DNA from: the human T2T-CHM13v2.0 reference genome, Homo sapiens
DNA: 64,000 bases
Assembly (NCBI RefSeq): GCF_009914755.1
Contig: NC_060933.1
Reading direction: 5' to 3' (one strand)
The notes beneath the pieces were generated by a model that was not told the origin of the DNA, did no database searches, and saw only the letters and a list, made by a program, of their open reading frames with translations. Below, one piece after another: positions 170-56,816 of this stretch. Made by a program: the position numbers and the translations under genes. Positions within the stretch are counted from its first letter, which is position 1. Every line of letters begins with the position of its first letter.

Positions 170-255
170 CTGAAAAGATGGACACACTCAGGTATCTCTG
201 AGCCAGGCAGGTTGGCCTTGTCTTAGGTCATCAACAACTTGTTTCAGTAGCGTGC
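170..255 (-). pseudogene. GC pseudo-exon: end of hinge / start of cyclase catalytic domain
   Basis: AG acceptor at 256-257 and GT donor at 168-169. Reads (S)TLLKQVVDDLRQGQPA..AQRYLSVSIF(F)S with two 1-nt deletions, matching the class III cyclase entry motif MLPxxVAxxLxxG....Y.SVTIxFSD. Confidence 0.9.
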
Positions 256-8120: not shown

Positions 8121-8596
8121 GCTCTGATCCGTCTCTATGTCATACCGGTTCCCTTCCACCATGGGAGTTGGAATCCTCAACCTGCCTGAGCGCCTGCCCT
8201 GCAGCCTCCAAGGAGGGCTGCTCTCCCAGCTCCACTTCCCCAGAGTCTGGACACTTCCTTCCAAGACTCATGCACAGCTGCCTGAGATCCAGTGCTGATA
8301 TGAAATTATTTCCTTGGCATTCGAGGTAGAGATTTGTCTTTTACCTTTACCCTTTGACACACAGTAACTTCTGCTAAAGGGACTGAGAATTACTGAAATC
8401 CTAGTACAAATGAGAACTGATCCTTAAAAATCCATGTAAGCAGAACATAAAATTCTAAAACAAAGATGTAAAATTGTCATTTCCATGGCTTCAACAATTA
8501 GCTCTCAGAAAAGAACACTTCAGAGAAACAAGTAGAAATGTATGAACTAACCAAATCAGTATTATTGACACTGTACTTCAATATAGCATTACTTAC

Positions 8597-8689
8597 TACA
8601 GAGCAGGTGGTCCGTTTTGTGTTTTTCATGCATTAGGTCATGGGTCCTTTCTGCCACAATGCTTTCAGGTGTTTGCTGTACTTCTCCAT
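8597..8689 (-). pseudogene. GC pseudo-exon: coiled-coil hinge/dimerisation segment
   Basis: AG/GT(AAGT) boundaries. Reads MEKYSKHLK(A)IVAERTHDLMHEKHKTDHLLC with a 1-nt deletion (93 nt instead of 94), matching the ME.Y..LE..V.ERT..L..EK.KTD.LL hinge. Phase 1 joins the 170-255 exon. Confidence 0.93.
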
Positions 8690-8968
8690 CTAAGCATTAA
8701 TCACAAAGGGAAAATACTTCATAGGAACACGGTGCTCCCTGTGTATTAATTTCTGACTCTTTGAAAGCTCCTAAAAGGCAGGGGAATTTCAGTAGGGGGC
8801 TACTGGGCTTGTAATTATTATCCGCTTGGGATCTAATAACCAAGCCAGCTGAGTGCTCCCTGTGAGGGGGTGCACCACTGAGCCTTGCCCTGAATGCTAT
8901 GGTAAATCCATACCTGAACAAGTGAGCCTCAATCAGCTACTTGTGTGCAGTTCAGGAAGAAGGCTTAC

Positions 8969-9087
8969 CAAGGGCATCATCATGTATGGCACACTATCTT
9001 TGTTGGGATTTATTTTGTTTAAAGCTTCTTTATTTGCTGAAACACAGGTCTTTGGTATGAGCTGTTTTTCCTGCACCTCCTAATAAG
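8969..9087 (-). pseudogene. GC pseudo-exon: kinase-homology subdomain XI
   Basis: Reads LIRRCRKNSSYQRPVFQQIKKL(L)NKINPNKDSVPYMMMPL with a 1-nt deletion. Donor GTAAGC is intact; acceptor is mutated to AC (9088-9089). Confidence 0.88.
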
Positions 9088-9448
9088 GTGCAGTGTTTAA
9101 AAGTAGCAATCAAACACTGATTTGTCAATATTCTAAATAGAGTTGCAGAATCATCAATCTGTAAATCATCTAGTCCCAGGTTTCTCTGCCTCTTTTGACC
9201 TTAGTCCCATCAGCCAAGAAAATTTGGTTGAGCTTTACTTTCAGTAGCTTGAACTCCAAAATCAATGTGTACAATTTTTGTTCATTTTACAAATACAGAA
9301 CTTGATGATAAAATCCAGTGTGCTTTTCCAGATCACATATGATGCATGCTCTTATGGGGGACTGTTCCCAATTCAGATATGCTACTTGTGCTGCCCCTTG
9401 GACTCACTAATGTAGTAACCATTTTTTTATTTTAAATATAAGAAAACT

Positions 9449-10763: not shown

Positions 10764-10868
10764 CTCTGCATACTCTGAGGGGCAAGGATAGTGATTCTCA
10801 GGCTTCCCTGTGATCAGCAACTCAAGAGGGAGACATAAGGAATGCTCTTCAGAATAACGCTCTTCCTT
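10764..10868 (-). pseudogene. GC pseudo-exon: kinase-homology subdomain X
   Basis: 105 nt, open: KEERYSEEHSLCLPLELLITGKPENHYPCPSEYAE. Strong pyrimidine tract and AG; donor position reads GG. Phase 0/0 fits both neighbours. Confidence 0.78.
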
Positions 10869-14003: not shown

Positions 14004-14050
14004 TGAGACTGGGTCACTGGATGTGGCGATCTCCAACAAAATGACAGCAG
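14004..14050 (-). pseudogene. GC pseudo-exon: kinase-homology subdomain IX
   Basis: TTTTTGCAG acceptor and GTAAGA donor. Reads AVILLEIATSSDPVS, continuing DVYS(Y/F)xxIxxEI, with an apparent 2-nt deletion at the start. Confidence 0.85.
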
Positions 14051-14306
14051 CTGCAAAAAGACACACGGCTCATTTTGATGTAAAATCTCTCATCCAGAGC
14101 AAATTAAAAATCCACACATCTTCCCATCTCCTGTGAAAGCAGAGCCACTGTTGGCAGAGACAGTAAAGATATGGCCTAGGTGAGCTTGGCTATACCCACA
14201 TTTCTGAATTCTACCAGGTCATAATTATCCAAAAAAAAAAAGGGTAAATATTTCTTCCAAATAAATCAGATTCACTTGTACATATGTCACATTTAAAAAT
14301 AAATTT

Positions 14307-18226: not shown

Positions 18227-18368
18227 CTGTACACATCTCCTGGAGCAGGAGTTTCACAATCCAACATGAAGTAAGTTTCTGGGGCCAGATGCATCTGTTT
18301 CAGGCACTGTTGGTATGAACCACATCATGCATTGAAATCTTATTTTCTGTACAATTGCAAACCAAAGT
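18227..18368 (-). pseudogene. GC pseudo-exon: kinase-homology subdomains VII-IX (DFG, APE, DVYS)
   Basis: Reads (D)FGLQLYRK*DFNA*CGSYQQCLKQMHLAPETYFMLDCETPAPGDVY(S) with two in-frame stops. Acceptor is mutated to AA and donor to AT. Confidence 0.88.
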
Positions 18369-18839
18369 TTACCATTAAAGAAAAGAAACACATTTTTCAT
18401 TGGGGATGTACAACCATTAAACTGGAAAGCACCACAAGTATCGTCATCGTCATCATTGACCTAAATGTCTTTGTGATTTAGGTCTATGTGAAGTCCATGA
18501 CAGATGACAATGACAGAACTGACCAAGTAAAGAAAGTGGAATCATAATCACCTAAGATTTGACTAAATAAGAAGCATTTGCCTAACTAAACTTAGATTTA
18601 AAGGTAATGCATGAGGGAAAGGAGAAGATAATGTGAAAAAACTAATCCATTTTCATTCAAAGAGCACTGCCCAAATCTAAGCACTAATTCATGAAATCCA
18701 GATTATCTGCATGATTGTATTTTAAGAAGATTACTATGACAATCCTGGTCTGCCCACCAATCTCCTCTTGGACTTAATCTTTACCCATCACTGACCTATG
18801 TCTTTTTTTGTCTTACCTTTTTTATTATAAAAGATTTCA

Positions 18840-19683: not shown

Positions 19684-19832
19684 ATCCCTCCCCAACACTA
19701 GCCTTTTGTATAGTTCCATAAATGATAGCTATTGTCAAAACCAAACAGACCGTGTCTAAAAAGTGATTCCGGAAGGAAACATACTCTGTTGCTAGGAAAG
19801 CATGTATACCAATATGATGCTTTTCCCTTTGC

Positions 19833-19952
19833 CTGAAATTTTACAAACTCAGCAACCATCAATCACATAGTCAGTAGATTTTAGCTTCCCACGGTACATT
19901 TTGCACTGATGAAGATAGGCCATTCCTTATGCAACGTCCAGGCAAAGAAAAC
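19833..19952 (-). pseudogene. GC pseudo-exon: kinase-homology subdomain VI
   Basis: Reads FS(F..)DVA*GMAYLHQCKMYRGKLKSTDYVIDGC*VCKIS(D), a GC-type (H)GxLKS loop lacking the catalytic Asp. It has two stops, a 2-nt deletion, an AG acceptor and a GC donor. Confidence 0.92.
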
Positions 19953-21326
19953 CTGGACATGCCAAAGGACTCCATGTGAGCTGAGAACAGGACTCAGGCC
20001 TCCAATGTTCTTAGAAAGGTGATACTTTAATCAATTCCAGAACAAAAATAATAAACTTTTGCAACAAAAACAAAGCTCCCTACATCTTTTAGGAGGAACT
20101 TACATATCATAAATAATTGACTTCTCAATATGCACCCACAACAAATATGAATAGAGAAAAGGAAAAGAAGGAGTTAGAAGAAGAAATTAAGAAAAAGAAA
20201 GAGAAGAACAAGGAGGAGAAGGAAGAGAGAAGCATAGTATCACACACATGTATTTTTAGAAAGTCTTCGAGTTCAGTTTTCTTAGAGTTCTATTCGGCTC
20301 CACCTCATTTGCTTCCTGAACCTGAAAGTGTTTCTAAAAGGAAAGTGTCATCCAGAAGAGTAGCTAACAGGATCCAAGTCTGTCTGCCTTACATCCCCAC
20401 AGCTACCACCAAAGCACCTTATCTGGAATGTTGTAGTGCCAATCCCGATTCAAGGCAGAAGGGGTTTCAAGACCTCCAGCCTAATACTGTTGGACTCAGT
20501 GAGGATTACCCCCACTTCTGGGCCATCATCAATTTTGTGCCCACATAAATTCTGGCTTGACCTGCTGGCCTGGCTTGAACTCCTGGCCTGTTCTCCACTT
20601 GTATCCCAGAGTTCAGGTAATCAAATCTCTGTAGCTGATCATATTTGAGAAGAGGAAGGGAAATGCCAATCAAAACCACAATGAGATGTCATCTCATTCC
20701 AGTTAGAATGGCTACTGTCAAAAAAAACAAGAAGAAGAAATGTCTACCCTTCCCCAGCTCACCGCCAGTAGGAAACCTTCCAAAGCCCATTTCCCATCCC
20801 CAGTCTGGGCTAGATGCCACTCCTGTGCACCTGACATACCCCTAGGAACTCTATCGCTGTTCTGTAACTCTGCTTATTTGCCTTCCCCAATGGACCAAGA
20901 CATTCTTGAAGGCAGAAAATCTTTCTCATTTATTTTTATTACCTACAGTGTCTAGCATAGTGTTTCTTAGATTAATTAATTAGACCTACTGCTCGTCTTG
21001 TCAGGACTATTTGCTGTGGCCTATAGCTACGCCAAACAATGTTCTAAACAGAATGTTCTACTTAGCCAGGTCTCCTCTGGGCACCAGTTGGGGGAGAGGG
21101 ACCTCATTCAAAATCCTATTTCCTCTAGTCTTCCCTGTCTAGGTATACCAACCTGCCCATCCATGCCACAAGATATAACACAAGATATTGCATTCACTTC
21201 CAGGATAATTGATTCCAAGATAACGCATTCACATGGCAATGAGCCTTAGGAATGTTGATCAAAGAAGGGCTTAGTTGTAGGAGTTCACTGGTTGTGACTC
21301 CTACCACTCAAATGTCTGGCTCCTAC

Positions 21327-21470
21327 CAAAATCCCCAGTTGAAAGAGATGTTATCATTGAGCAGAACATCCATCAAGCTTCCCTTTGGGCAGTATTCCAT
21401 CACAATAACCACATCTGGCAGTGCAATACAGCCTCCAGTGAATCTGCAGATGTTTGGATGATCTAATTCT
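21327..21470 (-). pseudogene. GC pseudo-exon: kinase-homology subdomains III-V (intact frame)
   Basis: 144 nt with canonical AG/GT. Reads ELDHPNICRFTGGCIALPDVVIVMEYCPKGSLMDVLLNDNISFNWGF; visible inside ORF 21323..21562. Confidence 0.95.
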
Positions 21471-24139
21471 CTAGAAAAACCAATACAGATTAGAAAGGAT
21501 TTCTCTGGGACATGATCTCCTAATTCCCACTTTAAAATCTGACCTAGTTTTTCTGACCACATAAAGAAACAAATATCCCCCTGGATTTAGTGTTGTGCAA
21601 AAATAAAGCTTGCAAATCCACCCACTGTGATGCAGGGTAAAGCACTTAGAAAAAAACATAATCGTCATCAAAATTCATTCTGGGCCAGAACTTTACATTC
21701 AATATCTGTAATTTGTGCAACAACCCTGACTGGTGGCTATAACTGTCCTCACTCTAAGTGAGGAAACCAAGGCTCAGAGAAGTGACGTAACTTAGCCAAG
21801 GTCCCCCTGATAGGTAATGGAGCTAGATCCTAAACCTGACTTGGCCTAATTCCCAAATTCATTCATGGTGTTTTTCAAACATTGCCATAGTGCATTCCAA
21901 TATAAAATACAAATACAAAAAGAAGAGTTCTTACACTGGGAGAGTTGAATTTTCTTCACAAATAATATTGTTTCAGAAACAAAAGGCAATTTTCACAAGC
22001 CAAGTAGTCACAGACTTTTCAGTCTCTCCACGCCAACCTCTCATATGTTTGTTTTTCTTTAAGTTGGATTCACCCAACCCCCACCCCAGGGAAAGAGTAG
22101 GCTCCCTAAATCCCAGGCTTGCAGCTGGCATTTCAGCGTGGTCATTACTACATCTGCACCATCAGCACAGAGGCACAGGTGCTGCCTTGCATAAACCAAA
22201 GATTGATTTGCAGGTTATCCATGAGGAGCTTTCCAGTCATAACATTTTTCTCCAATCAAGATTCCAGTATCCTTTATGCAAGTACACAGGCAGTAGGGGA
22301 GGGAAAATATCTACTGTCTTTTCAGCTTAAGTTTGCTTCCCCAATCATCACATCTCGAATTACTTCGCAAGACATTCTCCAAGGAATAGCACAATAGCAG
22401 TACTTTTCAGAACTGATGCCAGGGAGGGGAGGAATGTTTATGCTTGTAGTAAGTCCCAGCTGGTAGATGAAGGGCCTTTTCCCCACTCTTCAGAGTGGAA
22501 TTCTCTGGTATCTCCTACCCCTTACTCACTTCCCACCAAGGAAAGGAATCATCGATGAGTGGGAGTTCACACTCACTATGTCACCATTACTGGTGGGCGG
22601 CATCACTGTGGTAAAGACCATCTCTTCCATTACTGCTCCCACATGGTAAGCACCACTGGGCAGTTCCTCCTCTGTGGGAAGAGCTGCTGTTCTTGTTCTA
22701 CCTACAACTGGGGTGGGTGAGGTAGGCCCATAGTCCTGGTGTGTAGGTGGTCAGATAAGTGACTTTATGTCTGCTCTGCAGGCCAAGCTGCTCACATGCC
22801 CACTCGCTCGTCTGGCTGAGCATGTGGGTCTAATGACTCAGATGTGGTCTCTGTGGTAGAAGCATGCACTTCAGCATCTGGCTCTCCAATCCAGCTTTTA
22901 GCAGAATTTGCTTTGAATATCAGGGACTTGATACTGAGGACAAGTGTTACTTTCTTCTCTTGCTATTATTCCTTATGTGTTCTTCCCATTGGTCAGAAGC
23001 AGAAAGGGAAGAAGAGATGAATAGCAACCTGAACATTTAACAACTGAGAGCTCTTGCAAACCAGGCTCTGAAAATATTCTCTATCAACATTAGAATGGCA
23101 CCAAGTCAAGGGCACATGAGGAAACCCCTCCCAACTGCAGGATGAGATGTCTGAAATACCTGACGTAGAGCATATTAAGAGAACAATTATCTGTGTCCAG
23201 CTTTATCATCTATAATATATGTTTTATATACTCATCAAGCAAAGATGCTTTAGTTTGCTGAACCCAGTGAATCACAGAGACTTTTGCAAATGTGAAGAAA
23301 TAGTATGTAGCTGCAGGATACTGCAGGCTCCTTTGCTAACTGGAAGATTCGTTGCTGTATTTTGCAAAACCCCAAACTTCAACCCAACCCATTCTCTCTT
23401 AACCAAGATAAACTGCCGTCAACCCAGCATCTTCCTCTTCCATTCCCTACCCATTTCTATTTAGAGAAGAAGGAACTGAAAACTGATATTAATATATTGC
23501 TGTATGAGTGTTTTGGAATAAGAGAGGAGGAAATAGGCCTACTCCCCTTCTCTCTTCCCTCTCCTGAATCTAAAGCCAGCCTGATGCAATAGGGAAGAGT
23601 GGTGGGAGCAGAAAGAAGCTGAACCTCGGTGGGGAAGTGCAATTGTGATTTCCTCTAATAGGTAAGTTTTTGGCATAATCTGTGCACAAAATAAGGCCTT
23701 AGACTGTAAGAGAATAATTACTTTTTCTAATAAAAGCCATTGTTCTTTTCCTGCAATCAACTTTCAAGTTCTCTAAACATTTGTGATATTAATTCTATCA
23801 AGCTCTAATCCTTTGGCCATCACTCGTCTTCTTGTTCTTAAGAAGAACCTCTACTTATCCTTTGCCATGATGGGTTAAATATAAAATAAGATATAATAAA
23901 GTAAATGAAAAGCAAGGAAAACTATTAGGTTTGTACTTGTGTACCAACTCTGAGAGATGATTAGAGATGACTGAAGCACTGTGTTGCGAAGGATTCTGAG
24001 GCCAGATCTGTACTCAGAGGAAAGGTACTAATATTAGAGCGGTCCATGGGCATGAGCAATGCACACATTGTCCATCCTTGAAAGATTTAGAGTCTTACTC
24101 TTGAGTCCAAAAGGCCAGTTCACAAGGACATCAGTATGG

Positions 24140-25185: not shown

Positions 25186-25780
25186 AAAGTTTTTAAAAAT
25201 AGCACAGTGCAGTGGTATGAGTACAAGCTTTTGGGTCAAGCAGAGAGGTACTCAAATTATGACTGGGCTACTTATCGGCTCTGTGACCTCAAGCAAGTTG
25301 CTGAATCTCTCTGAATCCATTTCTTCATCTGCAGAATGGGAGTAATAATGCCTACCAGTCTAATTAGGTGGGTAGCCAGAAGTAAGGAATACAACTGATA
25401 CATAGAAAGCATCCAGTGGGTAACATGGCAGCCGAGGATAGGTCAGACTCAGCATAAAGACCAGTGGGGAGAAGTTACAGGAAGACCTACTAGCGTTCAT
25501 GATAAGGAAAACTTGCTAACTTAGAGCAGTCTAACAATAGAAGAGGCACCTCTACAGAAAGACCATCGCACTGCAAAACCATAGCCCCACAAACCACAGC
25601 AATGGGGAAACAATGACCCACGAAGCAGAGGTTCACAAACAATAAATCACTCCCCAACATTGAGGCTCGTAATCCATTCCACAGGATGAAGGAGCCACCT
25701 GTGAGCAGCAAACAATCTCAGGCTCAGGCTTCCCACAGGGGTGGTTCCTCAAGGCCACCAGCCCCGTGTATTCTGTTTAC

Positions 25781-25865
25781 TTTACTTGCAGCACTTCCCT
25801 ATGGATCACTTTGGAGAAAGTAAATGTCTTCTTCTTGATCCTGTTTATGGCCACAGTCCTCATAA
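25781..25865 (-). pseudogene. GC pseudo-exon: kinase-homology subdomains II-III (VAIK region)
   Basis: TTACAG acceptor and GTAAAC donor. Reads Y(..)RTVAINRIKKKTFTFSKVIHREVLQV(K) with a small deletion after Tyr. Phase 2 joins ELDHPN. Confidence 0.88.
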
Positions 25866-28171: not shown

Positions 28172-29533
28172 ACATCCCTGTTTACTCTCATCTGTTAATT
28201 TTTCCAAATAAAATTTAGAATCATAATATTAGCACAGACCCGAGGCCTCCAAGGCAGGGAGCTGGCAATGGGGCAAGAACAAGCCATTTCCCACCTTCTC
28301 TTGAGCAAATAATACTGCTCTTTTATGCAGGGTGAAGCAAGTAGAGTCTGCAAATTGTTTTTTTCAACCCAACTTCACTCTTCCTACAACTTTTGGAAAT
28401 CTGCATTTTCAGAAGCTTTTCTCACATCAAGCAGAATTTGTTAGCAAAACCTGTTCTAGCTAAGCCTATGGTGAATCTGTCAGAAGGGGACGGGTGGCCA
28501 TGCTGTGTGCAGGAGCTTCTAAGAAATAGCACTGCTTAATCCTATCACCTATGATGCTTATAGCAATCGCAAAATTACTTAGACATTTAAAGGGAAAAAA
28601 TTGTCAGAGATGTACCTCTTAGGTGAATGGTTTTACCATAAAAAGCTGACTGCCTTGTCTTGGGTTAAGAACACATTTTTGGTTACATAGATTTCCTCCC
28701 CAATAATTGTTGGAATATTGGCTAAATAAAATATTCTCCATAGCAGATTTAAATCACACCCAAAACTGTCCATTTGAGTTACGAGTATTTGTCTTTTTCT
28801 TTGTGTTTTAGGCATTTTCTTGAGACACTGGGTAAAGATGGGGGGCTGCTAAATAGAGGCCATTTAAACCACTTTAATTGTTATTTCAATGGGGAGTTGG
28901 AAGGAAGTGTGTTGGGTACACTGCTAGGTAATCTACCACTGCGTGACCCACAAATGCAGACATTGTCTAAGTTACATTTGCACGACTTTTAACTAGCACT
29001 GGGAAAAGCCTGGCTTAAGAGTAAAAGAAAGGCCTAGAATCCAACAGACCTGGGTTCTAATCCTGACTCCACTTAATACTATTTGAAAACCCTGGGCAAG
29101 TTTATTTCCCAGCTCTGTGCCTCGGTTTCCTTGAATAGAATGTTAGGAAACTAAAACTTACCTTGTAGGATTCAAGAATAAGAGATAATGCATAGAAAGG
29201 ACCTTGTACAATAGTTGGCACAAAGTAGGTACCTAATGAAAAGCCAGTTATTAATGCCTCCAAGAATATGAATGGTCTGTATGTCCATATCATTTCTAGC
29301 TTAAGAACTCACCCAAAAAAAGTAAAAGGATAAGAGCTCTGTTGAGTGGAGAAAAAAGATTCTAGATGATTCTCTTAGTTTACAGAATTTCTGCCTAGGA
29401 AATCAAATTCTTGCCTCTGGCTTGAAGGGCATCCAAGAGCCCACTCACTGCAGCTCAAGCTTGGCACAGTCGTAGGAACATCTCCCCTGCCCTGCACTGA
29501 ACACACTCCTCAGGAACCAGCCTACGAGCTTAC

Positions 29534-29669
29534 TTTGGGTGAAGTGCCGCTTCCTAGAAGCCAAGAGCAGCCATGCAGATGCTGCCCCCGGTGCCCCTGC
29601 TGGCATGGGAATCCTTGGCCACTGTCAACCCGCTGCCCAGGCTCCCCTCCACAGTCCACCGAACCACAT
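29534..29669 (-). pseudogene. GC pseudo-exon: Ser/Gly-rich juxtamembrane segment
   Basis: TTCCACTCAG acceptor and GTAAGC donor. Reads VVRWTVEGSLGSGLTVAKDSHASRGTGGSICMAALGF, then RKRHFTQ after a shift, typical of the region before the kinase-homology domain. The exact donor is uncertain. Confidence 0.7.
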
Positions 29670-32496
29670 CTGAGTGGAAGAAACAAAACAGCCCACATCA
29701 GTGTGTGCAGCCAACAAACGGAGCAAGCTGATCAGCAGATATCACTGAAAAAACCCCTCATGATAATAATGGCTGCCGTGCATGTGCCAGACACCCCCAC
29801 CTGGCACTTTTCACGTGTCTTCTTGTTTAATTATCACAATAACCCTATGAGATGGGTATTGGTACTGTATCATCATTTTACAGAGGAGGAAATGAGGTTC
29901 AGAGAAATTCAAAGTAGCTTCTCCAACATCCCATAGCTGATAAGAGTCAGAGATAAGATTACAACCCAGATCTGTTTGACTCCAGCGCTCAAACTCATTC
30001 CACCATACATGCTGGCTGTCCCAAGAGCCCACGTACAGAGTTCTCTGCTTGGGATTCAGAATCTGACTCATAGTCTCTGACCTAAAAGGAACGTTTGAGA
30101 ATCTCAGTTATTACAGTATGTTCTCCAAGCCCACTCTTATACACTCTGCCTTGTGATACTGGGGATGGGACCCTGCACAGCCCATTTCTCCTTTGCCAGC
30201 TGCTCTCTTGAGGTGTTTTCTAGGGGTGGGGAGTCCTAAAGGGATACCTAAAGGAGGGAGATGCCATCGGCTACTTCCTGCCTGCTTCCCATTTAGGTCA
30301 GCATGGCCCCAGAAAGGTTTCTTCTTTAGAACTCCTATAGCAGTCTGTTGCCACAGCACAGGGATTCTGATTGCAGTTTTCTCAGCACCAGCCATGTTGT
30401 ACCACTCTCCTTCCCCCTCCCCAGAGGCATCAGGACCCACCTGAGCTAAGAGGTGCATCCCCTTCTCCAAGTTTCTGAGTTTTAATAGTCACAACTTCTT
30501 CACTCTGTTCCCAGCCCCTGCAGCTGTTTCCTCTGTGGCTCCTTTGTGCTCCCTGATTGCCTTTCCAGTTCTTTAATTCCTGGTTAATAATGAATTGTAT
30601 CAACTTCTCTTTTAAAACAATGGGCATGGCTTGTCTCCTGACTGGACTCCATTTTACACAAAGAATCATCGTCTGCTCTAATGCCTTTCAAATGAGGAGA
30701 CTGAGGCCCAGAGAAGTTAAGTGACATGCTTAAGCTTGCACGCTCAGTAAGAATATAAAATAATGTTGCTACGATTTGTCCTCTTAGAATGTGCTATAAC
30801 ACCATGAGGTACATACCACCATCCCTATCCCTACCCACACCCTCTTAGAATGTGCTATAACCCAGTTACCTATATACCATCATCTTAATAAAACAAATGC
30901 AGAAATTGAGGCTCAAACATCATGTGATTTCCCTAATGTCACCCCTTAATGAGTAATAGAGGTACAATTTGAACTGAATTAGCCTAACTGTGAAACCAGG
31001 GCTCTTAACCACTATTCCATACTCAGTGTGTTATCTCCCCATCCCTCTGGACTGGATAAATGTCTCTGCATCTTCAAGGGCTGGTGGAGCTCCTAGCTGT
31101 GGTTTCTCGCTCTCCTAGAACTGCTCACTCTTGAAGCTAGTAATCTTTTCTTAGCACTACTGGCACAGAATATAAAATCTAAATATTGTCCATCTACTAA
31201 CATTTCTTTAACCAAGTCCCCAAACCAAAGGGAAGAAAGCAGCTATCTTTTACATGATATTATTGTCTCCCAAGCTATCTGGGAATCTTCAGGATGATTA
31301 AAGTCCCTCTCATAGCCAGTTGCAATGACTCTAAGTCCTAGATGATTCACAGAAAAAAAAAAGGGGGATGGGGGTGGGGAGGACTACTTGGCAATTAGGA
31401 AGGAGTAGGATCACAGTTATGAAAGCTATAAATATCTTTCACATGTCTTCTGTAGACTGGGCTGCAAAATAAGAAAGTTCCAAAATCCTATTTATTAGTT
31501 ATCAAAAAGCACAAAGTTGCACTTCAAACATATCAATAAGTCTCTCTCTATTACCTCTTGACAGATAGAGCCCAATTAGGAGCTTCCAAGAAGCTGGGTT
31601 TGGAGTCCAGCTACTTCCTGACTGAGAGCTCTGCTGAACACTGCAGCCAGTTAATCACAGGAGGAGACTGGATGGCTCCCATGTCAGGCATGCTGCAGGG
31701 CCATGGCAGGAGGAAGAGCTGCTTGCTGTCTACTAATGAGTCAACCTGGATGCCCAGCGGGCTCTGCTGGGCTCAATGCCCTTGTTTGTAGGAAGTATCC
31801 TCAGGATTCATCTTAGTTGCAGCCCAGAATGGAGGTTAAGTCAGGAGCCATCAGAGAATGTAGGAGGCCTTACCACCATGCGAGGGTTGAGCCTACCTAC
31901 CAATCCAGGAGTAGAGAAAAAGACATCGGCCTTTTCAGGCATCCTGAGCTTTTGTGGGCAGCTCCGTTGAAGCTCTTGAAAGCTCTGCTGCTTTCATTTA
32001 GTAACTATTTATGGACTGCTAACTAGGTACCAGGCACTGACAGTATTACTCTGTTCAAGTCAATAAACATTTCCTGAGTATCTATATGTACAAGCACTTT
32101 ACCAGGAAGAAAGGACTTACACCTAAAAAAGGTGGCCTTCCAGACTCGTGTGACTTCCTGCTCATCTCAGCACCCTGGGTGTCACGGGTTTTCTCAGTGC
32201 CCCACAGCAGGAAGCAGTCCAATTTACTAGAAAGAGCAACAGACAAGGAGCCAAAGTTTATGTCTGGGCTCTGCCACTCACCCCCTGCACGATTTAGGCA
32301 AGTCACTGAACCATCCCACCTCAGTAGTTTCATGTGCAAAAAGCAATCTGACAGGCTAAGATCCAACAAGACAAATCTAAGGATGATTATTATTGAAATT
32401 TATGGGAGGAGGGAAAAGAAAACAGGTATTTCCACCCTATTTAATTTAAACGTTATATCAGACAAATGAAATTCCCTGTGACTATTAAGAAAGACT

Positions 32497-34227: not shown

Positions 34228-34345
34228 TGTCTCCTCCTTCTCATTTTATAGATGAGGAAAGTGAAGCTGAGAGCAGGTGAGTAATTTGACTAAAGTCACA
34301 CAACAGTGACTGGGCCCATTAACTCAGAGCCTGAGCTCTTAACCG
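33915..34345 (-). mobile_element. MIR split by the right arm of the inverted repeat
   Basis: MIR sequence (…ACAACCCTATGA) stops at ~34010 and resumes at ~34240 (CATTTTATAGATGAGGAAAGTGAAG…). Confidence 0.75.
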
Positions 34346-36580: not shown

Positions 36581-37621
36581 TCACTCACTATTACGTGGCA
36601 TTAAGGAAATTTCCTGCTGAGCAGAGTGACCTTGACATGTGATTTCTTGTGCTTTTCTGGGTATATGCAGAGCATTATAAGAAGTAATGATTCCCAAAGA
36701 GCCCATCTAATCTGACAATTTTCATCAGCCTCCAAGGGGAGATTTTACCTTTTGCTCATTTCTCAAATTTTTTTTTTTAGTGTTACTATAAAAAAGAGAG
36801 GAAGAACAAGATCTATAACCTTTAATATGTCCTTGCAAAAGTTAGAGGTATGACATAAATGTTCTCTTTCACTCATCTTTGCCACCAGTCAGCATTTCTC
36901 AGCAGGTGGATCAAGTATACAACTGGTCGAACTTTCCTCTTTCTCTAAATCTTAAAGATACTCTCCAGGCATCAAATGTGAGTTTGGCAGAAAAACCATG
37001 GGTACTAGACTCTTAGACTACTGGGAACAAATAACATGAATCTCGGCTATTGGATCCTGACCACTCTAATCTCAACCAATTTTGAGTCCACATTTGGGAA
37101 CATGAGTTGTAAGGACCCTAGAAATAAAACTCTGATTCTGGTTATTTACAAACCTTGTTTGATATGAACAAAATCATTATCCACCTTTTACCCTAAAACA
37201 TCTTTTGTTTCTGATACTGAAACCACTAAAAAAAAAAAAAAAAAAAAAAAAAAGACTAAAATACAGTTTAAATGCTTTACAGTAAAAATTAATAAACTTC
37301 AGCACAAAATCAATACTTAATTATTCATCATTAGCTATAGTAAGACTACAAATAAGATGATAGTACTCGTTAGTAAAGCCAATTGCAATTGGTTTAATAA
37401 GGACCTCAATTAGAAAGTTGTATAAATGAAAAGACAAGAATTTGATAATTCAGTACAATTTTTAAAACATAACCCAACTATTTCAGGTTTATCAAAATCC
37501 TTAATTTTGATACATTGTACATTTCAGCTTCAACATAAAGACAAATATTTTGGGTTTTAGCCCTTTAAAAACTATTGCTGTGCTTCCTCTCTTCTCTGCT
37601 CCTGCCTCTCTGAAATCATTC

Positions 37622-38871: not shown

Positions 38872-40275
38872 CATCCTATATAAGTTTTGGGGGGTAATTG
38901 GGCCTTTCTAATAATAGTTTCTAGAATAATGTTTTTTATTTTTTAGGAGAGTCAGCAAGAATGCTTTGATCTGCTTATAATTATTATTTACTGGTCTATT
39001 ATGTATTAAATGGGACTCTGTGCTTGATTGGACCATGAGTGATTATCCTTATCTGTATGACATAAGTGTCCACAAAGTTTCAAGTTACCAGCTTCGTTGG
39101 TAGTCACTGATATGGTTGTGTGTCTGGGTATTTTTTTCTTTTAGCATAGGCTGCACCCCTCTTCCCTATTAGTCATTAAGGTCTTTGACATCAGATACTC
39201 TGCCTTTTGTAAAATAAGATTAAAAAGTACAGAGGTCTATACATAGTGTGGCAGGAAATTCTCACTGGAGTTTACTGCATGGGGCAGAGATAAGATTGAG
39301 GCCATTTAGCTACAAATAGAATGCACTGCATGCCCCATTCCCTTCACTGAGGCTCTGGTAGAGGCAAAGAAGTCCCAGCTGTCAATTCTGAAATTCCCAG
39401 GTGCACCAATCCAGATTACTTTAACTATTATTAATTACTGGCACCTCACAACTCATTGCCCCACACCAGTGCATCTTAATAGCATGGCTGAGAACCATGG
39501 ATTTAACCTACGTGTTGAAGGTCGACCAAAGAATCCATTTGAAATCTAGAAATATCTACAGATCCAGATGCCAATGACCAAGCAAAAAAAAATTCCCAAA
39601 AAGCAGGACAGACAGTAATGGTCAAGTTCAGTGTGAACCTTTCCAAATCCAAGACTGGACCTGCACTCCTCTCCAGCCCAAGAGGAATTGGGGCCTGAGA
39701 TGGTCTTCTCTGATCAGAGCTAAAGTATAGTGGGAAGAGCAGTAGACTCAGAGACCAGAGAACTGAATTCAATCCAACCTCTGTCACCAACTCACCAAGA
39801 GGCAATGCTGAGTGGAGAGGTCGTGCAAAAAAAAAAAAAAAAAAAAAATGGACTTTGGAGCTAGACAGAACTGGGTTCAAATCCCAGCTCACTCAATTAC
39901 TCTTCTTGTAACCTAGGGCAAAGCACTCCAGCTTTTTGTGCCTCATTTTTCTCGCCTGTAAAAAAAAAGGATAACAACATTTACTTATCAGGGATTCGTT
40001 ATAAGAATTAAATGAGACATATGTAGGCACTCAATAAAGGTCAGTTGCTGCTGTGTGGCCTTGGACAAATCATTTAACATCTCTGCACCTCAGTTTCCTC
40101 TTTTGTAAAGTAACAGGAATGGGTTACATAATTTCTAGGACTCTTAACAACAGGGAATTCTGAAATCATATACCTCAGATCTGAGATCCTAGATGTCAGA
40201 TCTTAGCAGAGGATAATAAACATAAGGAATAAATAACTAAGGAAAATTTGGCACGAGGGGTTGATTAGATCTTTT

Positions 40276-40427
40276 CAGAACGGTTATGGCGAAAGCAATA
40301 CAGACCAAGCAGATTGGAAAGGCAGCCATCGCCCAGGCACTTACAGAAAGTAGACGTTCCCCAGGGAGCTGGGTACAGGGAGTAGCTCTGAGTCCCCTCA
40401 CACAGGCCATTTCCACAGACGGAATAA
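40276..40427 (-). pseudogene. GC pseudo-exon: membrane-proximal Cys motif plus transmembrane helix
   Basis: Reads YSVCGNGLCEGTQSYSLYPAPWG, then after a frameshift the hydrophobic LLSVSAWAMAAFPICLVCIAFAITVL. A long pyrimidine tract ends in CAT (dead acceptor); the donor position reads AAAAGA. Confidence 0.72.
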
Positions 40428-41059
40428 ATGGAGAGAAAGAAAAAGAACATTACACCCAAAAATATTTTAAGACCATAAAAGTAGACTCAATTAAAACAAA
40501 TGTTTTAATGGAGCAAAAAGCAAAATGGACTGACGCTTAATTTTGATGCTGGTTCTGTCATTAACTTGGTTTGCAGTTTTGCTTTGGCTACCAGGAACCT
40601 CACAGTCAAATTTATTGTTCATGTTTAGTAACCCTTTAGAAGTTCTTATAGCCTACATGTTATGACTGCAATTCCACTTGCCCCTTTCACTCAGCCATTA
40701 TACTTGATTTTCCATAATCACAGCTTTGTTTTTTTTTTTAGATTTTCCTATTTCATTGTATCTATTCTTGTAATCCACTTGAATTACTTTATGAAACAAG
40801 GCAGAATATAAATAAATAGAAATCATTTTGTGAGTCACTCAACTACTTTACATGTTCTTTTCCTGTGTTTAAAATAAGAGTTGGGGACTCTGTCCAACAT
40901 TCCTTTCAGCTCTAACCCTGTTGATTCTAGTGTTTCATTTCTGCACCTCAAAGGCCATAATATTAGGTGGTCTTTATAGAGCCTTGACTTAGTAAATATA
41001 GACAGCACTGGGCTCTCCAATACATTTTACTTGTTCCTTATACGTTTATTAGGAGTCAC

Positions 41060-41290
41060 TTATGCTCTGGAAGATTATTGTCAGTAGAACTAATGAATTT
41101 TAAATGACTCATTTTGAAGATTTCCTTCCATGCTATAACTACTAGTTGCTCCATTAGTATCCTTAGAATTGGAGCTATCACTCCAATTAACTCCAATATA
41201 ACACTTGAATAGGGCTGAATGTTTGTATAGAAACTATTAACTTGACTAACAGTTTGAAATGATCCCACTTTGATCTTTAGCAACCCTATG
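41060..41290 (-). pseudogene. Candidate GC ectodomain pseudo-exon
   Basis: Non-repeat sequence. Reads ...IQPYSSVILELIGVIAPILRIL... and ends in phase 2 at a GTGACT donor, compatible with the TM exon. The 5' boundary is not resolved. Confidence 0.35.
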
Positions 41291-43660
41291 TGATAAGTCA
41301 AGCTGGGGACACATCTGCATTTTGTAGATAAGGAAAGGGAAATACAAAGAGATTCAGTGACTTACTCAAAGTCACACAAGTAATAATCAGCACGAGGACT
41401 TCAAGTCTGATCTTCTGACTCTACTCCTTGGCCCTCTGCAACCTCCCAGCCTCAATAAAACACTGGGAGGGGATGCTTCCAGGTCACACACCTCCTGTGA
41501 CAGCCTCTTTGTTATGTTGCCCTGGAGAGCCACCTGCTCCAGTCCTATGGAGTGCCATAGAATTGTCTTATCCCTCTTTCACATACAGACCTTCTACTTT
41601 TTGAAAACAGTAATCCTGTACCCTTTAAATCTTTTATTCCTGAGCTAAACATCAGAGTCAAATTCCCTGAGAGCTATTTTATCTGTGAGGCACATGAAAC
41701 TCAGTGGCTAGGGTCCATTGCTTTTCAGGGGCCTATGGAAAAAAAAAAAAGGTTCCAAGATACAGATAACAAAATTGAAATTAATAGCCATTTAATTAAC
41801 TACCTGAAAAATGTAACATTATGTCAATGTCATTGTTAAATTTATTATTCATTTATAAATTTATTACAGGTGAGAACACTTGTAGATTAGATTCTCTTGT
41901 TTTGCAAGAATTCCTGAGTAGGCACACTGATTGATTTATGCCTACTCGGGAGAGTAGACACAGACAATTGTAAATTGAATAATCATGTATAGGCAAATAA
42001 CTTCAAAGGCAAAAATATAAAAATCCCTTCAACATTTTTATGGAAAATTTTACATTTAATTCAAGATGTGGGTGCATTTTAATTCGTTTGATCTAAGTGA
42101 TGATGCCTCCAAAAGAGTCTACATAAAGCTTAAAATGGTCCTGAGTCTTCCATGGCCTAAATTTCTCCATGTAGGCCAACATAACTTTTAGTAAAATTGC
42201 TCCTTGTGGCTTCACAGTTTATGTAATTTCTTCTAGTTGCTGAATTTAACCAGTAAATTGAACCCCATTTACATTTGTTTGGAAGAAAATGAAGTTTCTG
42301 GGAGCACTCTGGGTCCTGCCACAATTCCACCAACATGACCTATCATGTTGTCAGAAGCGTCCTCTCTCCACACCACACAAATCTAATCTCTTCCAGACAT
42401 GATGAGAAACTGCTGTAACTCTGGCAAAAGAGCCACTGAAGTCAGCCACATTGCCAAGGGCACGGTTTTAATTGCCTCAAGGAGCCCTGGGGTGCACGGG
42501 CAGCACCCTAAATATATTGTAGGTTAAAACCATCTTGCATCCAGACACAGACTGTTAATTCTGTTAAACTTCTTCTATTCAAGTGATATGCCAGGTATCG
42601 AAAATGGGCAATTCTTTAAAGGTGCAACGGCTCTGTGAGTGCTCCTTTCACAGGGCCTAACGTGAGACCATCTGGCACGAAGGCTTCATCTGTGATGCCC
42701 TCAGAAGTCACCAAGAGGAAAAGCTGGGAGGATCTGCTTGTGAATTCCTAGGGCCGGTAATGATGACAAACCTGCTTTCTAGAGGGCTGGGCCTATGGGT
42801 CTTGGCTTCAATCCCAGGCCTGCGGGAAGTCGTGGGGAGCTGGATGATTGAGGCAATAGTACTGATGGTCTCTGCCAAAGCCACAGCCAATTCTAGAACT
42901 GGCTTCCCTGCTGGGAAGATGAAAGCCTGAGTTTTATCTGGGTTCTAGGAGGACCTCCAGAGTTCCTCTTCCTTAGGCAGGAAACAAAGCAAGCTCTTAA
43001 AGGGGGCAGGGTAGGGAACATGGGGCTCTGCATCAAGGTGTGTGTAGAAAAAGCTGCTACCCAAAGCTACTCTGTTCTCAGAGGCTCAGCATCCTGAATG
43101 AGGATGCATTTGCCTCACAAAAGCCCTGTCTCAGTCAAGCCCTTTGGAGTCTATCCAAGGTGACCACCTGCCCTATCTTCTAAGTCTACTTGTTCCATCT
43201 CTGTGCTTCAAACCTGAGTTTGCCTCTGTCCCAGCCCTTCAGATTGATGTTCAGATCAGCTTGGGTCTAGTCTCTGGCTTCTCTGATGCTGTCTGCAGGC
43301 TTCCCTGTACTCCCAAAGCCAGTCCTGACTCCAAAACCCAGCCAGGCCTGCAGAGCTTCACCATCTCTGGTTGTCCAGGCAAAAACTCTGAATGCTGTAA
43401 TGCAGAGATCACTAGAGCTTCTATGTAGAGACTCAGCCAAGACCCTTGAAGAAGGGAGACAAGTTTGGCCATGAAACAATAAACCACCTTTAGAAACTCA
43501 ACAGCACTTATTGGGTGCCTGTGGAATGGTGCTAGGCACTGTGGGTACAGCAAGCTCTGCCTTCACAGAGCTTAGAGTCACCTTCAGACCCGCTGAACAG
43601 ACACTCCGCTTCCTTACCTTCTGCTGGTAGCATGGTGTTTAGGCTTCCAGGGCAGCTTAC

Positions 43661-43859
43661 CTCTTTCCAGTTCTGATATGGGCAATAAGAGAAGTCACAC
43701 CTGTGTGGACCAACACCACCGGGAATAGCAATAAAACAAGGGATCAGACAACCAAGGTACATTCCATCCCTTCCAGCTGATTCTTTCTAGTTTATGCATT
43801 GTTGCTCTGGGAACCCCAGGATCTATGGGTATCTTCAGCACAGATCCATGAAGTTGCAG
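43661..43859 (-). pseudogene. GC pseudo-exon: Cys-rich ectodomain
   Basis: CTCTACAG acceptor and GTAAGC donor, 199 nt. Reads CNFMDLC*RYP*ILGFPEQQCIN*KESAGRDGMYLGCLIPCFIAIPGGVGPHRCDFSYCPYQNWKE (7 Cys, 3 stops). Confidence 0.68.
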
Positions 43860-48906: not shown

Positions 48907-49211
48907 ATATATATATACACACACATATATACATATATATGTGTATATATACACACACATATATACATATATATGTGTATATATACACACACATATATAC
49001 ATATATATGTGTATATATACACACACATATATACATATATATGTGTATATATACACACACATATATACATATATATGTGTATATATACACACACATATAT
49101 ACATATATATGTGTATATATACACACACATATATACATATATATGTGTATATATACACACACATATATACATATATATGTGTATATATACACACACACAT
49201 ATACATATATA
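48907..49211. repeat. 34-bp alternating purine-pyrimidine tandem repeat (~9 copies)
   Basis: Unit ATATACACACACATATATACATATATATGTGTAT; source of the six junk ORFs at 48849-49333. Confidence 0.95.
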
Positions 49212-49227
49212 TCTGTGTCTTGAGTCT

Positions 49228-49575
49228 TGATTGGGTGCAGTGGCTCATGACTGTAATCCCAGCACTTTGGGAGGCTGAGACAGGAGATCACTTGAATCAC
49301 TTGAGGCCAGGACTTTGACACTAGCCTGCACAACGTAGCAAGACCTCATCTCTACAAATAATGTAAAAATTAACCAGGCGTGGTGCCACACACCTGTAGC
49401 CCTGGCTGCGCAGGAGCTGAGGCGGAAGAATACTTGAGCCCAGGAATTTGAGGCTGCATTGAGCTGAGATCATGCCACTATATTCCAGCCCAAGTGACAG
49501 TGAGGAATTTGAGGCTGCAGTGAGCTAAGATCATGCCACTATACTCCAGCTTGAGTGACTGAAAAACAAGAAAAC
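49228..49575 (+). mobile_element. AluJ with internal 61-bp tandem duplication
   Basis: Right-arm segment 49442-49502 is repeated at ~49503-49561. Confidence 0.88.
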
Positions 49576-50242: not shown

Positions 50243-51930
<1,688 letters not shown>

Positions 51931-54402: not shown

Positions 54403-54725
<323 letters not shown>

Positions 54726-56777
54726 TTAGAAGTTCAGTTTCAATGGGTCATTTTGCCAGTAGCAAACAAGATGTGAGTGAACATTTGTCCATCGTCAGGA
54801 ATCTAGGAGGCACATTTCCCACTTGTCCCCTTTGCAAAAGAAAGAAGCTGTTTTATTATCAGTAGAGACAGCTGTTACATTAACATGTGAGAAAGTATCA
54901 ATTATCATGACAAGAAAGTACAGAGCAAAAAAAAGTGAGAAAAAATGATCACTGGTGGAATTATTTAAATCCTTTCTCTTTATCAGGGCTACTCTGCAGC
55001 AAACATCCTGTAATCACTCTGAAGAGCTCTGAAAATGGGTTATTTAGCTTCCTAGTCCTATGATCTAATGCGACCAGATGGAATTTGCCCTTTAAAAAAA
55101 ACCCTTTTCTCTCTTTTGTTCTCAAGTGATATCACAGTAATGATGAGCTGGATACCCAAAGTCTAGTTATTAGTTTTAAATGCTAAAATGGCTCAGCCTA
55201 CCTACACTCTCAAAATCATCTGATTCACTGGAGGGGATTAAGAAAATGTACTGGAGTGTTAGAATGGATTTCCAAAGGAATCACATGTTTACCTCAAATC
55301 AGAGGTTCTTGCCCATAGCTACAAGCTTTGGCTCTTATTCTCACCTTACATGAAATATTTTGGGATGTTTCTCACCATTTCAAAGATTTGAAATTTAATT
55401 TCAAGTAGCTGAATAGAAATGACATTTCCTAAATTAAAAAATTAGCACTAACTGTATGACACCCTTCATACAAATACTTTTTAATCTTAAAATAAACAAA
55501 GCTCCTCTGACTACAAATGAAATTTAAATCAGAAACTGGAACACCACCTCTAGTAGGCCAGTCTTTCCTTGCCATCCCTGAGTGAGAGGGGTCTCTGGTA
55601 AAGGGTATCAATCCTACATATATGTTATTAGCAGCATTGCTTTCTGTTTCTTAAGATAGGATGACAAGAAATCTTGCTTTCTCAACCCTGTTTGGAGGTG
55701 AGAGTATTCAATTCAGCACACATGTGTTGAGTTCCTGCTTTGTGCAAAGACTTGGTCTCAATACTGCGAGGGCGTAGAGTTCATACTCAGGAAAGAAGAG
55801 ACATATTCATTTAAAAAAAAGATGTTAGGAAGCTCAATATTATGAGTTACTAACTATTGAAAGCGTTTAGTTCCAAAATTCTAAATCATTAAATTATAAC
55901 ATTTAGTCAGCAGAATAATCCAGGCTAAAAGCTAAACTCACTTTTCTCCTTTGATCAAAACTAAAATTTCTGTAGGTTGAAAGTAGAGAAGGAAAAGGTA
56001 TAAGGACACAGAAAAGACAAACGCAGTAAGTATGCTTTACTATTAACTGAGCTTTTAACTCTTTCATAAATATTATCTAACTCTGTGTTTGCCTTTTTGA
56101 AGGGGCACAAAATGGGGAAGTGGAGTGACTCAGGGCAGCTGGTGTTTTAATGACAGGTCCTCCAAGACAGCACTGGGGCTGAATCATCAGGATCTACTCT
56201 CTGGTCTTGACTCAGTCAGGTCTGACAGCACTAGACCCAAGAAGAGTAGCCTTTCTATGACAAACTCATACTAAATGAGCCAAACCAATTCCTAAAACTA
56301 GAAAGCCAATCTATTCATCCTGCATCCAAACCACACCTTATTCCACAGCAAATTTAAGGCCACTTAGAAATATGTGGGCAAGTTATCAGAGAAAATAAAT
56401 CAAAAATTTAAAAACAGAAGAGGCAAATAACAAATAAAAATAAGACAGCAAGATGGCATTGGAAGTGAAGTAAGCTCACAATGTATAGAGAGAGGTATAT
56501 ATTCTTGTAGAATAGCCTCCTTATAGCTGGAATCACAACGCATATACAGTGAGTTACATGGTGCCACCATCATCGTATCAAGATACCAGAGAAGCCAATC
56601 AGAAGATTATTCAGAACAAAGGAAATATAATGGGCTGAGGAGAGACATTCCCCTAAACTCTAGAAAAACCTGAGATCTGGTTCCTCAAACAAGACCCACA
56701 GCTGCAGTAGTTCAGTCTCCACGCCCAGGGTTCCTCCCTGGACAGTGCCACAGACCTGCTTCTCTGCACCCACTTAC

Positions 56778-56816
56778 TTGGGTTCACACTTCCCTTCACC
56801 AATACATGAGGGATCA
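56778..56816 (-). pseudogene. Candidate mini pseudo-exon with CxGxGxC-like motif
   Basis: TCCTCAG acceptor and GTAAGT donor. Reads DPSCIGEGKCEP, echoing CGNGLCE at 40276-40427, but it is short. Confidence 0.3.

What the first reader, a model, noticed from the sequence alone, without database searches (positions are those of the whole stretch)
40276..43859. Atypical Cys-rich ectodomain instead of an ANF-receptor ligand-binding fold
Seen: the TM helix is directly preceded by VCGNGLCEGTQSYSLYPAPWG. Tyr/Trp codons (TAC, TAC, TGG) sit one substitution from Cys, suggesting an ancestral CGNGxCExxExCxxCPxDCG module. An upstream exon has 7 Cys in 66 codons. The 41060-41290 candidate ends in an alternating hydrophobic stretch (VILELIGVIAPILRIL, with W after a shift), reminiscent of the end of a PA14 beta-sandwich; this is weak inference. 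Established knowledge: classical mammalian membrane GCs use a periplasmic-binding-like ectodomain. The implication is a different, unknown ligand class.
Basis: inference. Interest (0 to 1): 0.7.

Follow-up and report, generated by a model that had tools for sequence, protein, structure and literature searches.

The report
Fossil of a lost orphan receptor
This stretch of human chromosome 9 holds broken exons of a cGMP-making cell-surface receptor gene that is intact in sharks, fish, frogs, birds, platypus and marsupials and was likely lost in early placental mammals; its outer sensing part is unlike that of our working receptors of this class, is predicted to be a small antibody-like fold on a disulfide stalk, and likely detects a signal nobody has yet identified.

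Summary
The finding lies in a minus-strand pseudogene of a membrane guanylyl cyclase: 22 exons over about 139 kb, 14 in the window. Twenty scored exons are 463/724 identical to the koala protein, with 12 stops and 12 frameshift steps. The motif before the TM helix is the decayed six-cysteine stalk of the orthologues, and their roughly 210-residue ectodomain has no ANF_receptor match. AlphaFold2 predicts an Ig-like beta-sandwich (pLDDT 85) with conserved histidines. Two details fail. The 7-Cys exon is an off-frame reading of a real exon. The 41060-41290 PA14 candidate is intron. Intact members occur in sharks to birds, platypus, marsupials, molluscs, annelids and a sea cucumber; none of the best 120 hits is placental. 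They form their own clade apart from NPR1, NPR2, GUCY2C and GUCY2D, yet databases name them 'ANP receptor-like'. Prior knowledge is partial: a supplement row in Hezroni 2017 very likely lists the kinase/cyclase half as pseudogene ENSG00000236796, and medaka OlGC8 (recalled, not read) is likely a member. The ligand is unknown; I favour a secreted peptide or protein on weak grounds.

The parts
54722..54814 (-). Ectodomain exon, koala 141-171, 3 stops. Three further ectodomain exons lie upstream outside the window (window places 112352-112263, 81613-81492, 72572-72439; see full report)
   Evidence: 19/31 identical; HMM E 6.8e-6
43618..43719 (-). Ectodomain exon (last two predicted beta strands), koala 171-203, 2 stops, a frameshift near its end; acceptor reads CG.
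   Evidence: 22/28 identical over 43719-43636; frames and donor at 43617 seen; Cys counts
40358..40419 (-). Decayed six-Cys juxtamembrane stalk (family spacing C-x4-C-x5-C-x2-C-x3-C-x2-C); of the six, 2 Cys remain, 2 read Tyr, 1 is hit by a 2-nt loss, and the sixth (just past this stretch) reads Arg
40276..40338 (-). Transmembrane helix, same exon (40419-40276), after the frameshift; splice donor lost
37155..37225 (-). First cytoplasmic exon, koala 254-277, 1 stop, 1 frameshift
   Evidence: 16/23 identical
29532..29670 (-). Ser/Thr-rich juxtamembrane exon
   Evidence: scores 46 and 53 vs shuffle max 43 and 42 of 30; aligned
25780..25860 (-). Kinase-homology domain exon, koala 328-354
   Evidence: 15/27 identical
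21329..21472 (-). Kinase-homology domain exon, koala 354-401, no lesion
   Evidence: 34/48 identical; E 1e-17; E 4.7e-8 to the NPR2 locus
19825..19954 (-). Kinase-homology domain exon, koala 402-445, 2 stops, 2 frameshift steps
   Evidence: 28/42 identical
18229..18369 (-). Kinase-homology domain exon, koala 443-489, 2 stops
   Evidence: 22/47 identical
14007..14060 (-). Kinase-homology domain exon, koala 488-505
   Evidence: 11/18 identical; weak alone (E 0.45-3.7) but colinear
10764..10868 (-). Kinase-homology domain exon, koala 507-541
   Evidence: 22/35 identical
8966..9093 (-). End of kinase-homology domain, koala 540-582, 1 frameshift
   Evidence: 25/42 identical
8595..8689 (-). Dimerisation helix exon, koala 582-613, 1 frameshift
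   Evidence: 23/31 identical
174..250 (-). Helix-to-cyclase exon, koala 615-640, 1 frameshift. Five cyclase-domain exons follow downstream outside the window (window places -1362 to -26652; see full report)
   Evidence: 17/25 identical; downstream exons

Best explanation
These segments are ectodomain and transmembrane exons of a broken, single-copy human gene for a membrane guanylyl cyclase that is intact in non-placental vertebrates and several invertebrate phyla, was likely lost once in early placental mammals, and has a roughly 210-residue sensor predicted to be an Ig-like beta-sandwich on a disulfide stalk, which likely switches on cGMP synthesis when an unidentified extracellular ligand binds. 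SHOWN: 22 colinear minus-strand exons with stops, frameshifts, lost splice sites and lost catalytic residues; orthologue architecture of novel ectodomain, one TM helix, kinase-homology domain, dimerisation helix and cyclase with the GTP-type residues; a separate clade; no ANF_receptor domain. PREDICTED: the beta-sandwich fold. INFERRED from how membrane guanylyl cyclases work (established knowledge, recalled): the receptor is a dimer held by its cytoplasmic helix; ligand binding re-orients the two ectodomains; the stiff three-disulfide stalk passes the turn to the TM helices; the kinase-homology domain releases the cyclase. INFERRED, weak: His101, His105, His131 and His161 lie on neighbouring strands of one outer sheet face and, with His2, form the binding site. 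Ligand odds: secreted peptide or protein about 0.45; metal ion, pH or small molecule about 0.35; no soluble ligand about 0.2. In humans the locus cannot make the receptor.
For: Exon map and lesions: (463/724 identical, 12 stops, 12 frameshift steps over the 20 exons). Closest relatives in a 1.8-billion-protein search are short-ectodomain cyclases; ANF-type ones rank lower. Range: 418 hits, best 120 listed, from sharks to birds; 4 mammals (opossum, koala, Gracilinanus, platypus), no placental; 26 hits with a mollusc query include molluscs, annelids, a brachiopod, nemerteans and a sea cucumber. FastTree on 53 sequences: family clade support 1.0, human with platypus/koala/opossum 0.995, human branch 0.47 against 0.04-0.06. 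An ectodomain query hits only this locus in the human genome (3 matches at E<=1). Model pLDDT 85.4, pTM 0.77; best structural matches are Ig-like sandwiches at Z 8.1-8.4, rmsd 2.2-3.5 A, 92-116 aligned. The family profile matches solved NPR1 only from profile position 226 on, past the ectodomain. The ectodomain is as conserved as the kinase-homology domain (koala vs Callorhinchus 0.71 and 0.71; vs quail 0.83 and 0.73). Four His are kept together in 105 of 107 rows. Hezroni 2017 (PMC5577775, supplement file 4, row 54) pairs a TMEM215-anchored human pseudogene with opossum, Xenopus and coelacanth genes; its method selects genes missing in eutherians (passages). In one kinase exon, human, macaque, tamarin and two unnamed records share residues seen in 0 of 72 other vertebrate rows at 2 columns.
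Against: No activity or ligand was tested. Z about 8 is what unrelated models typically reach (tool note), so the fold class is assigned but no family is. The His cluster is read from strand order and alternation; I had no coordinates. Two divergent unnamed members lack most of the conserved His (P0041, P0057). Only 120 of 418 hits were visible, so an intact placental copy is not excluded. The tree used a koala-anchored projection and FastTree supports only; IQ-TREE timed out. Human groups with platypus rather than marsupials (0.609), a likely long-branch effect. Exon 1 is supported by the platypus query only. Synteny of the orthologues was not tested here; it rests on one supplement row matched to this locus by anchor gene and span.
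Confidence: 0.85

Rival explanations
1. Same gene and fold, but the ectodomain senses a metal ion (Cu or Zn), pH or a small molecule through its His cluster rather than a peptide hormone.
For: His2, His101, His105, His131, His161 and Asn103 are near-invariant from molluscs to koala. Foldseek's top rows include copper proteins PmoD and LPMO; superoxide reductase aligns over 111 of 124 residues at Z 8.1, rmsd 3.5. A His at position 2 of a mature chain can bind Cu(II) (recalled).
Against: The metalloprotein matches are tied with non-metal sandwiches (macroglobulin, SoxYZ, transglutaminase domains); Foldseek TM by query is only 0.26-0.37. The His is at position 2, not 1 as in an LPMO brace, if cleavage is where I infer. 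No residue-level match to any metal site was available.
Confidence: 0.35
2. The receptor has no soluble ligand: the ectodomain is an adhesion or trafficking module and the cyclase is controlled from inside, like the retinal cyclases.
For: Ig-like folds often mediate adhesion; retinal cyclases are controlled by GCAPs (established). Medaka OlGC8 is recalled to show only basal activity with known ligands (not read; searches found nothing).
Against: The ectodomain is as conserved as the kinase-homology domain among vertebrates, and many invariant residues are polar types, which fits a binding site.
Confidence: 0.2
3. The ectodomain is a PA14-type glycan-binding jelly roll and 41060-41290 is one of its exons.
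For: An alternating hydrophobic string is present at 41202; the true ectodomain is beta-rich.
Against: The segment scores at shuffle level and the orthologue leaves no gap for it. No PA14 Pfam match at E<=1 in 5 family proteins.
Confidence: 0.02
4. The locus is a decayed duplicate of NPR1/NPR2 (ANF type) and the Cys motif is chance.
For: Databases call the orthologues 'atrial natriuretic peptide receptor-like'; a four-letter motif alone is expected roughly once in two such windows by a rough estimate of mine (no call).
Against: Cytoplasmic identity is 0.66-0.69 to koala, opossum and platypus members but 0.39-0.42 to human NPR1, NPR2, GUCY2C and GUCY2D; separate clade; six ectodomain and TM exons align to the non-ANF family.
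Confidence: 0.01

Closest known systems
Mammalian membrane guanylyl cyclases GC-A to GC-G (NPR1, NPR2, GUCY2C, GUCY2D, GUCY2F and others)
   Same: One TM helix, kinase-homology domain (PF07714), dimerisation helix (PF07701), class III cyclase (PF00211) with GTP-type residues
   Different: Ectodomain about 210 aa, no PF01094, predicted Ig-like sandwich plus six-Cys stalk; separate clade shared with invertebrates
Medaka OlGC8 orphan cyclase (Yamagami et al. 2003; recalled, paper not held)
   Same: Recalled ectodomain of about 214 residues; Oryzias melastigma P0256 has about 213 between signal peptide and TM and belongs to this family
   Different: Identity not tested by sequence; as I recall it, no fold, range beyond fish or human fossil was reported
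Human pseudogene ENSG00000236796 (Hezroni et al. 2017, PMC5577775; supplement row and passages read)
   Same: TMEM215 anchor; chr9:32836572-32869593 spans 33,022 bp, my exons from -7166 to 25860 span 33,027 bp; paired with opossum, Xenopus and coelacanth genes; 'Not expressed'
   Different: Covers only the kinase-homology domain to mid-cyclase; no TM or ectodomain exons, no family name in the row; the match to this locus is my inference (assembly not given in the row)
Human unitary pseudogene of Gucy2g (Zhang et al. 2010, PMC2864566; passages read)
   Same: A membrane cyclase gene dead in humans
   Different: Gucy2g is on chr10 and intact in mouse; this locus was not among the passages found for 'guanylate', 'Gucy', 'chr9', 'natriuretic'
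Ig-like beta-sandwiches: alpha-2-macroglobulin MG domains, SoxYZ, superoxide reductase, X325
   Same: Fold-level match, Z 6.3-8.4 over about 90-120 residues
   Different: 5-19% identity, tied scores, inserted helices and Cys-rich loops unmatched; no significant sequence match to any solved chain (best E 1.1)

Membership tests
Membrane guanylyl cyclase | Single TM helix after an ectodomain | tested here: met
   (by sequence)
Membrane guanylyl cyclase | Kinase-homology domain and dimerisation helix | tested here: met
   PF07714 and PF07701 in 4 of 4 full-length orthologues; matching human exons
Membrane guanylyl cyclase | Cyclase with two metal Asp, GTP-selecting Glu and Cys, catalytic Asn and Arg (residue roles recalled) | tested here: met
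   Orthologues: both Asp and the Glu in 101 of 101 rows with a residue, Cys 100 of 100, Asn and Arg 98 of 100. The human copy has lost the second Asp, the Asn and the Arg
Membrane guanylyl cyclase | Makes cGMP, ligand-regulated | not testable with these tools
   needs an assay
Natriuretic peptide receptors (NPR1/NPR2, ANF type) | ANF_receptor (PF01094) ectodomain | tested here: not met
   0 of 15 and 0 of 5 family proteins; 11 of 12 controls positive; none among the precomputed domains of 120 rows; BLASTP P0210 vs ANF-type P0078 best E 0.99
Natriuretic peptide receptors (NPR1/NPR2, ANF type) | Groups with NPR1/NPR2 in the cytoplasmic tree | tested here: not met
   paralogue labels are recalled from genome positions
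PA14 domain | Pfam PA14 match | tested here: not met
   0 of 5 at E<=1
PA14 domain | PA14 fold in structure search | tested here: inconclusive
   listed matches are Ig-like; lists show only the top 50
Unitary pseudogene | Intron-exon structure with inactivating lesions | tested here: met
   22 exons; 12 stops and 12 frameshift steps in 20
Unitary pseudogene | No working copy elsewhere in the genome | tested here: met
   ectodomain query: 3 matches, all in this locus, of 7 candidates scored; a loose first look could miss decayed copies
Unitary pseudogene | Intact syntenic orthologue in other species | tested here: inconclusive
   intact and nearest in tree; synteny only from the Hezroni row, no other eukaryote genomes on hand
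LPMO/X325 or superoxide-reductase-type metal site | His ligands in the same geometry | not testable with these tools
   no model coordinates or residue pairs returned; His conserved
OlGC8 subfamily | Sequence identity with medaka OlGC8 | not testable with these tools
   paper and named sequence not held; length agrees with recall

The most novel reading that the evidence does not exclude
An eighth, bilaterian-wide class of membrane guanylyl cyclase, misnamed as natriuretic peptide receptors in databases, uses an undescribed His-rich Ig-like domain as a metal-assisted sensor for an unknown hormone or ion. The whole signalling arm was dropped at the origin of placental mammals, leaving a 139-kb fossil in our genome.
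Probability: 0.3. Interest if true: 0.85.

Novelty: new variant of a known kind. Interest (0 to 1): 0.65.

Why it matters
Known mammalian membrane cyclases share a periplasmic-binding-type ectodomain. Here is a conserved class with a different sensor, present in quail and duck, Xenopus, fish and opossum, so its ligand and role can be sought with ordinary cGMP assays and knock-outs. It marks a signalling pathway that placentals seem to have lost. It also shows that many database entries named 'ANP receptor-like' are mislabelled, and it extends a partly annotated human pseudogene by about 105 kb.

Tried and rejected
PF00211 search of the genome gave 74 matches, none in the window: most cyclase exons lie downstream and are decayed. 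NPR1/NPR2 exons as queries found only 2 kinase exons and 1 cyclase exon. The first homologue search with one exon found only 5 short gene-model fragments. The motif ORF alone has no paralogue in the genome (best other E 0.33). The hydrophobic string before the motif is the intron's pyrimidine tract, not the TM helix. 41060-41290 rejected as exon. No Pfam family above cut-off, no NCBIfam family and no significant PDB sequence match for the ectodomain; the Atlas gave no usable hit. No ANF-type or PA14 chain appears in the top-50 fold lists, which does not exclude them. The stalk (model 183-207) was barely tested by the fold searches and not folded alone. Complex prediction of two ectodomains with Zn gave no answer (score 0.00, alignment not used): no evidence either way. 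IQ-TREE timed out; FastTree was used. Ten paper searches found no description of this family or locus; most listed papers were seen only as search listings, and subscription journals are not covered. Passages of PMC7674705, PMC6787079, PMC1435932 and PMC6170504 and the one held supplement of PMC10195156 had nothing on it. bioRxiv supplements cannot be read here and might list this loss.
Full report
OBSERVATION. The hydrophobic string before it is the pyrimidine tract of an intron; the TM helix follows in another frame and ends at 40276. The motif ORF has no paralogue in the human genome. The window is G000:C9:32860001-32924000.

FINDING THE GENE. Exons of the human NPR1 and NPR2 loci matched kinase-homology exons at 21472 and 19926 and one cyclase exon 7 kb downstream of the window. 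A search with the 21.4-kb exon returned five short models, among them human hCG1808876 and macaque and tamarin fragments. With the tamarin model, a search of 1.8 billion representatives ranked short-ectodomain cyclases above ANF-type ones. None of 15 such proteins has ANF_receptor or any Pfam family on the ectodomain. An ectodomain query from a lizard member gave 418 hits; the best 120 span sharks, bony fish, coelacanth, lungfish, amphibians, reptiles, birds, platypus and three marsupials, with no placental. A mollusc query gave 26 hits: molluscs, annelids, a brachiopod, nemerteans, a sea cucumber, two fish and two unnamed records. No arthropod, nematode or cnidarian is named among them, which is weak evidence given the word-based search.

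EXON MAP. Koala and platypus proteins align to colinear minus-strand exons from window place 81613 to -26652. Frameshift-aware alignment of 20 exons gives 463 of 724 identities to koala, 12 stops and 12 frameshift steps (the count of shifts depends on the penalty). Two more exons were found by targeted scans: 29670-29532 and a candidate first exon at 112352-112263 in a CpG-rich patch, the latter above shuffles only with the platypus query (56 against a maximum of 51). The gene thus spans about 139 kb with 22 exons, 14 in the window. Outside the window, upstream: 112352-112263 (exon 1 candidate; the His at mature position 2 reads Phe), 81613-81492 (koala 50-90, 25/40, 1 frameshift), 72572-72439 (koala 94-138, Cys/His-rich, 27/44, 1 stop, 1 frameshift). 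Downstream, cyclase domain: -1362..-1502, -7014..-7166, -18751..-18822, -24539..-24631, -26521..-26652. The second metal Asp and the catalytic Asn and Arg are lost in human, while 98 to 101 of the 100 to 101 family rows with a residue keep them.

(1) The stalk is right. Koala's six Cys map onto the motif; two remain, two read Tyr, one is hit by a 2-nt loss that makes the Trp and the frameshift, one reads Arg. The match beats shuffles, and 106 of 107 family rows keep all six Cys. (2) The 7-Cys reading from 43859 exists but holds 3 stops and is off frame; 16 of 969 blocks do as well. The real exon, 43719-43618, has no Cys in the orthologue. (3) 41060-41290 scores 26 against a shuffle mean of 27 and there is no gap in the orthologue to hold it.

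THE ECTODOMAIN. Koala residues 24-230 folded with 107 sequences give pLDDT 85.4 and pTM 0.77: nine strands of three or more residues, two inserted helices, and the stalk at pLDDT 73-76. Fold searches return Ig-like sandwiches, tied at Z about 8: macroglobulin domains, SoxYZ, superoxide reductase, a phage tail domain. Foldseek has one match at E<=0.001, PmoD, with TM 0.30. This assigns a fold class only. Fourteen Cys and five His are near-invariant across 77 vertebrate-group and 30 invertebrate-group rows. The ectodomain is as conserved as the kinase-homology domain among vertebrates, slightly less so against invertebrates (0.42-0.48 vs 0.49-0.53). From strand order and residue alternation I infer that four His face outward on neighbouring strands; I could not measure this.

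PHYLOGENY AND LOSS. On 510 cytoplasmic columns and 53 sequences (none dropped), the family is one clade (support 1.0) apart from human NPR1, NPR2, GUCY2C and GUCY2D. The human copy sits with platypus, koala and opossum (0.995) on a branch of 0.47 against 0.04-0.06. A second vertebrate paralogue exists in sharks, rays, coelacanth, sturgeon and reedfish. With a recalled neutral rate of roughly 0.17-0.2 substitutions per base since the placental root, a branch of this length fits decay since about that time; this is inference. Residues shared by three primates and two unnamed records but seen in 0 of 72 other vertebrate rows at two columns point the same way. The ectodomain hits only this locus in the human genome.

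MECHANISM. Shown: architecture and catalytic residues of a receptor guanylyl cyclase in the orthologues; a dead copy in humans. Inferred from the family: a dimer in which ligand binding turns the ectodomains, and the disulfide stalk passes this through the TM helices to the kinase-homology domain and cyclase. I favour a secreted peptide or protein ligand (0.45) because most ligand-gated membrane cyclases use one (recalled) and the domain is strongly conserved; a metal, pH or small-molecule sensor (0.35) is the main rival given the His set; ligand-free control is 0.2.

WHAT IS KNOWN. RefSeq has no gene in the window (hub note). Hezroni 2017 lists pseudogene ENSG00000236796 beside TMEM215, paired with opossum, Xenopus and coelacanth genes and not expressed (supplement row); the study selects genes missing in eutherians (passages). 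Its span matches my kinase-to-cyclase exons within 5 bp, so it is very likely this locus, without the ectodomain. Medaka OlGC8, recalled as an orphan cyclase with a half-length ectodomain, is likely a member, but I could not read it. Ten searches of the open literature found no account of the family, its fold or its loss; subscription journals and bioRxiv supplements were not covered.

VERDICT. New variant of a known kind: a known receptor chassis with an undescribed sensor domain, partly glimpsed before. Interest 0.65.

Noticed in passing
window place 112200-112800 (locus L023, outside the window): The candidate first exon sits in a patch with GC 0.71 and CpG o/e 0.62 (0.17 over window 40000-60000), so the old promoter island may persist
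   Followed up: partly
82635-83034 and 102474-104040 (hub annotation): BOLA3P4 and ASS1P12 lie inside the first intron of the fossil gene if exon 1 is right; the RefSeq enhancer 63082-64279 lies in the intron between the 72.5-kb and 54.8-kb exons
   Followed up: no
21329-21472 and -7014..-7166, -24539..-24631, -26521..-26652: These exons carry no stop or frameshift and up to 27/31 identity; may be chance or a second constraint on the DNA
   Followed up: no
33456-33678 and 34011-34237: Inverted repeat, arms of about 225 nt in two pieces, 89-90% complementary, 332-nt spacer, in an intron
   Followed up: partly
43721-43720 and 40421-40420: Both splice acceptors read CG in place of AG, and the TM exon has no GT donor
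   Followed up: yes
P0255, P0252, P0260, P0261, P0266, P0014: A second vertebrate paralogue of the family in sharks, rays, coelacanth, sturgeon and reedfish (support 0.996)
   Followed up: partly
P0105: An unnamed membrane cyclase with Bmp-like and Kelch ectodomain, nearest outside neighbour of the family (0.889): another non-ANF sensor
   Followed up: no
P0041, P0057: Divergent unnamed members that keep the architecture but have lost most conserved His
   Followed up: no
P0001, P0002, P0003: Human hCG1808876, macaque LOC114672773 and a tamarin model look like spurious gene models built on exons of this pseudogene
   Followed up: yes
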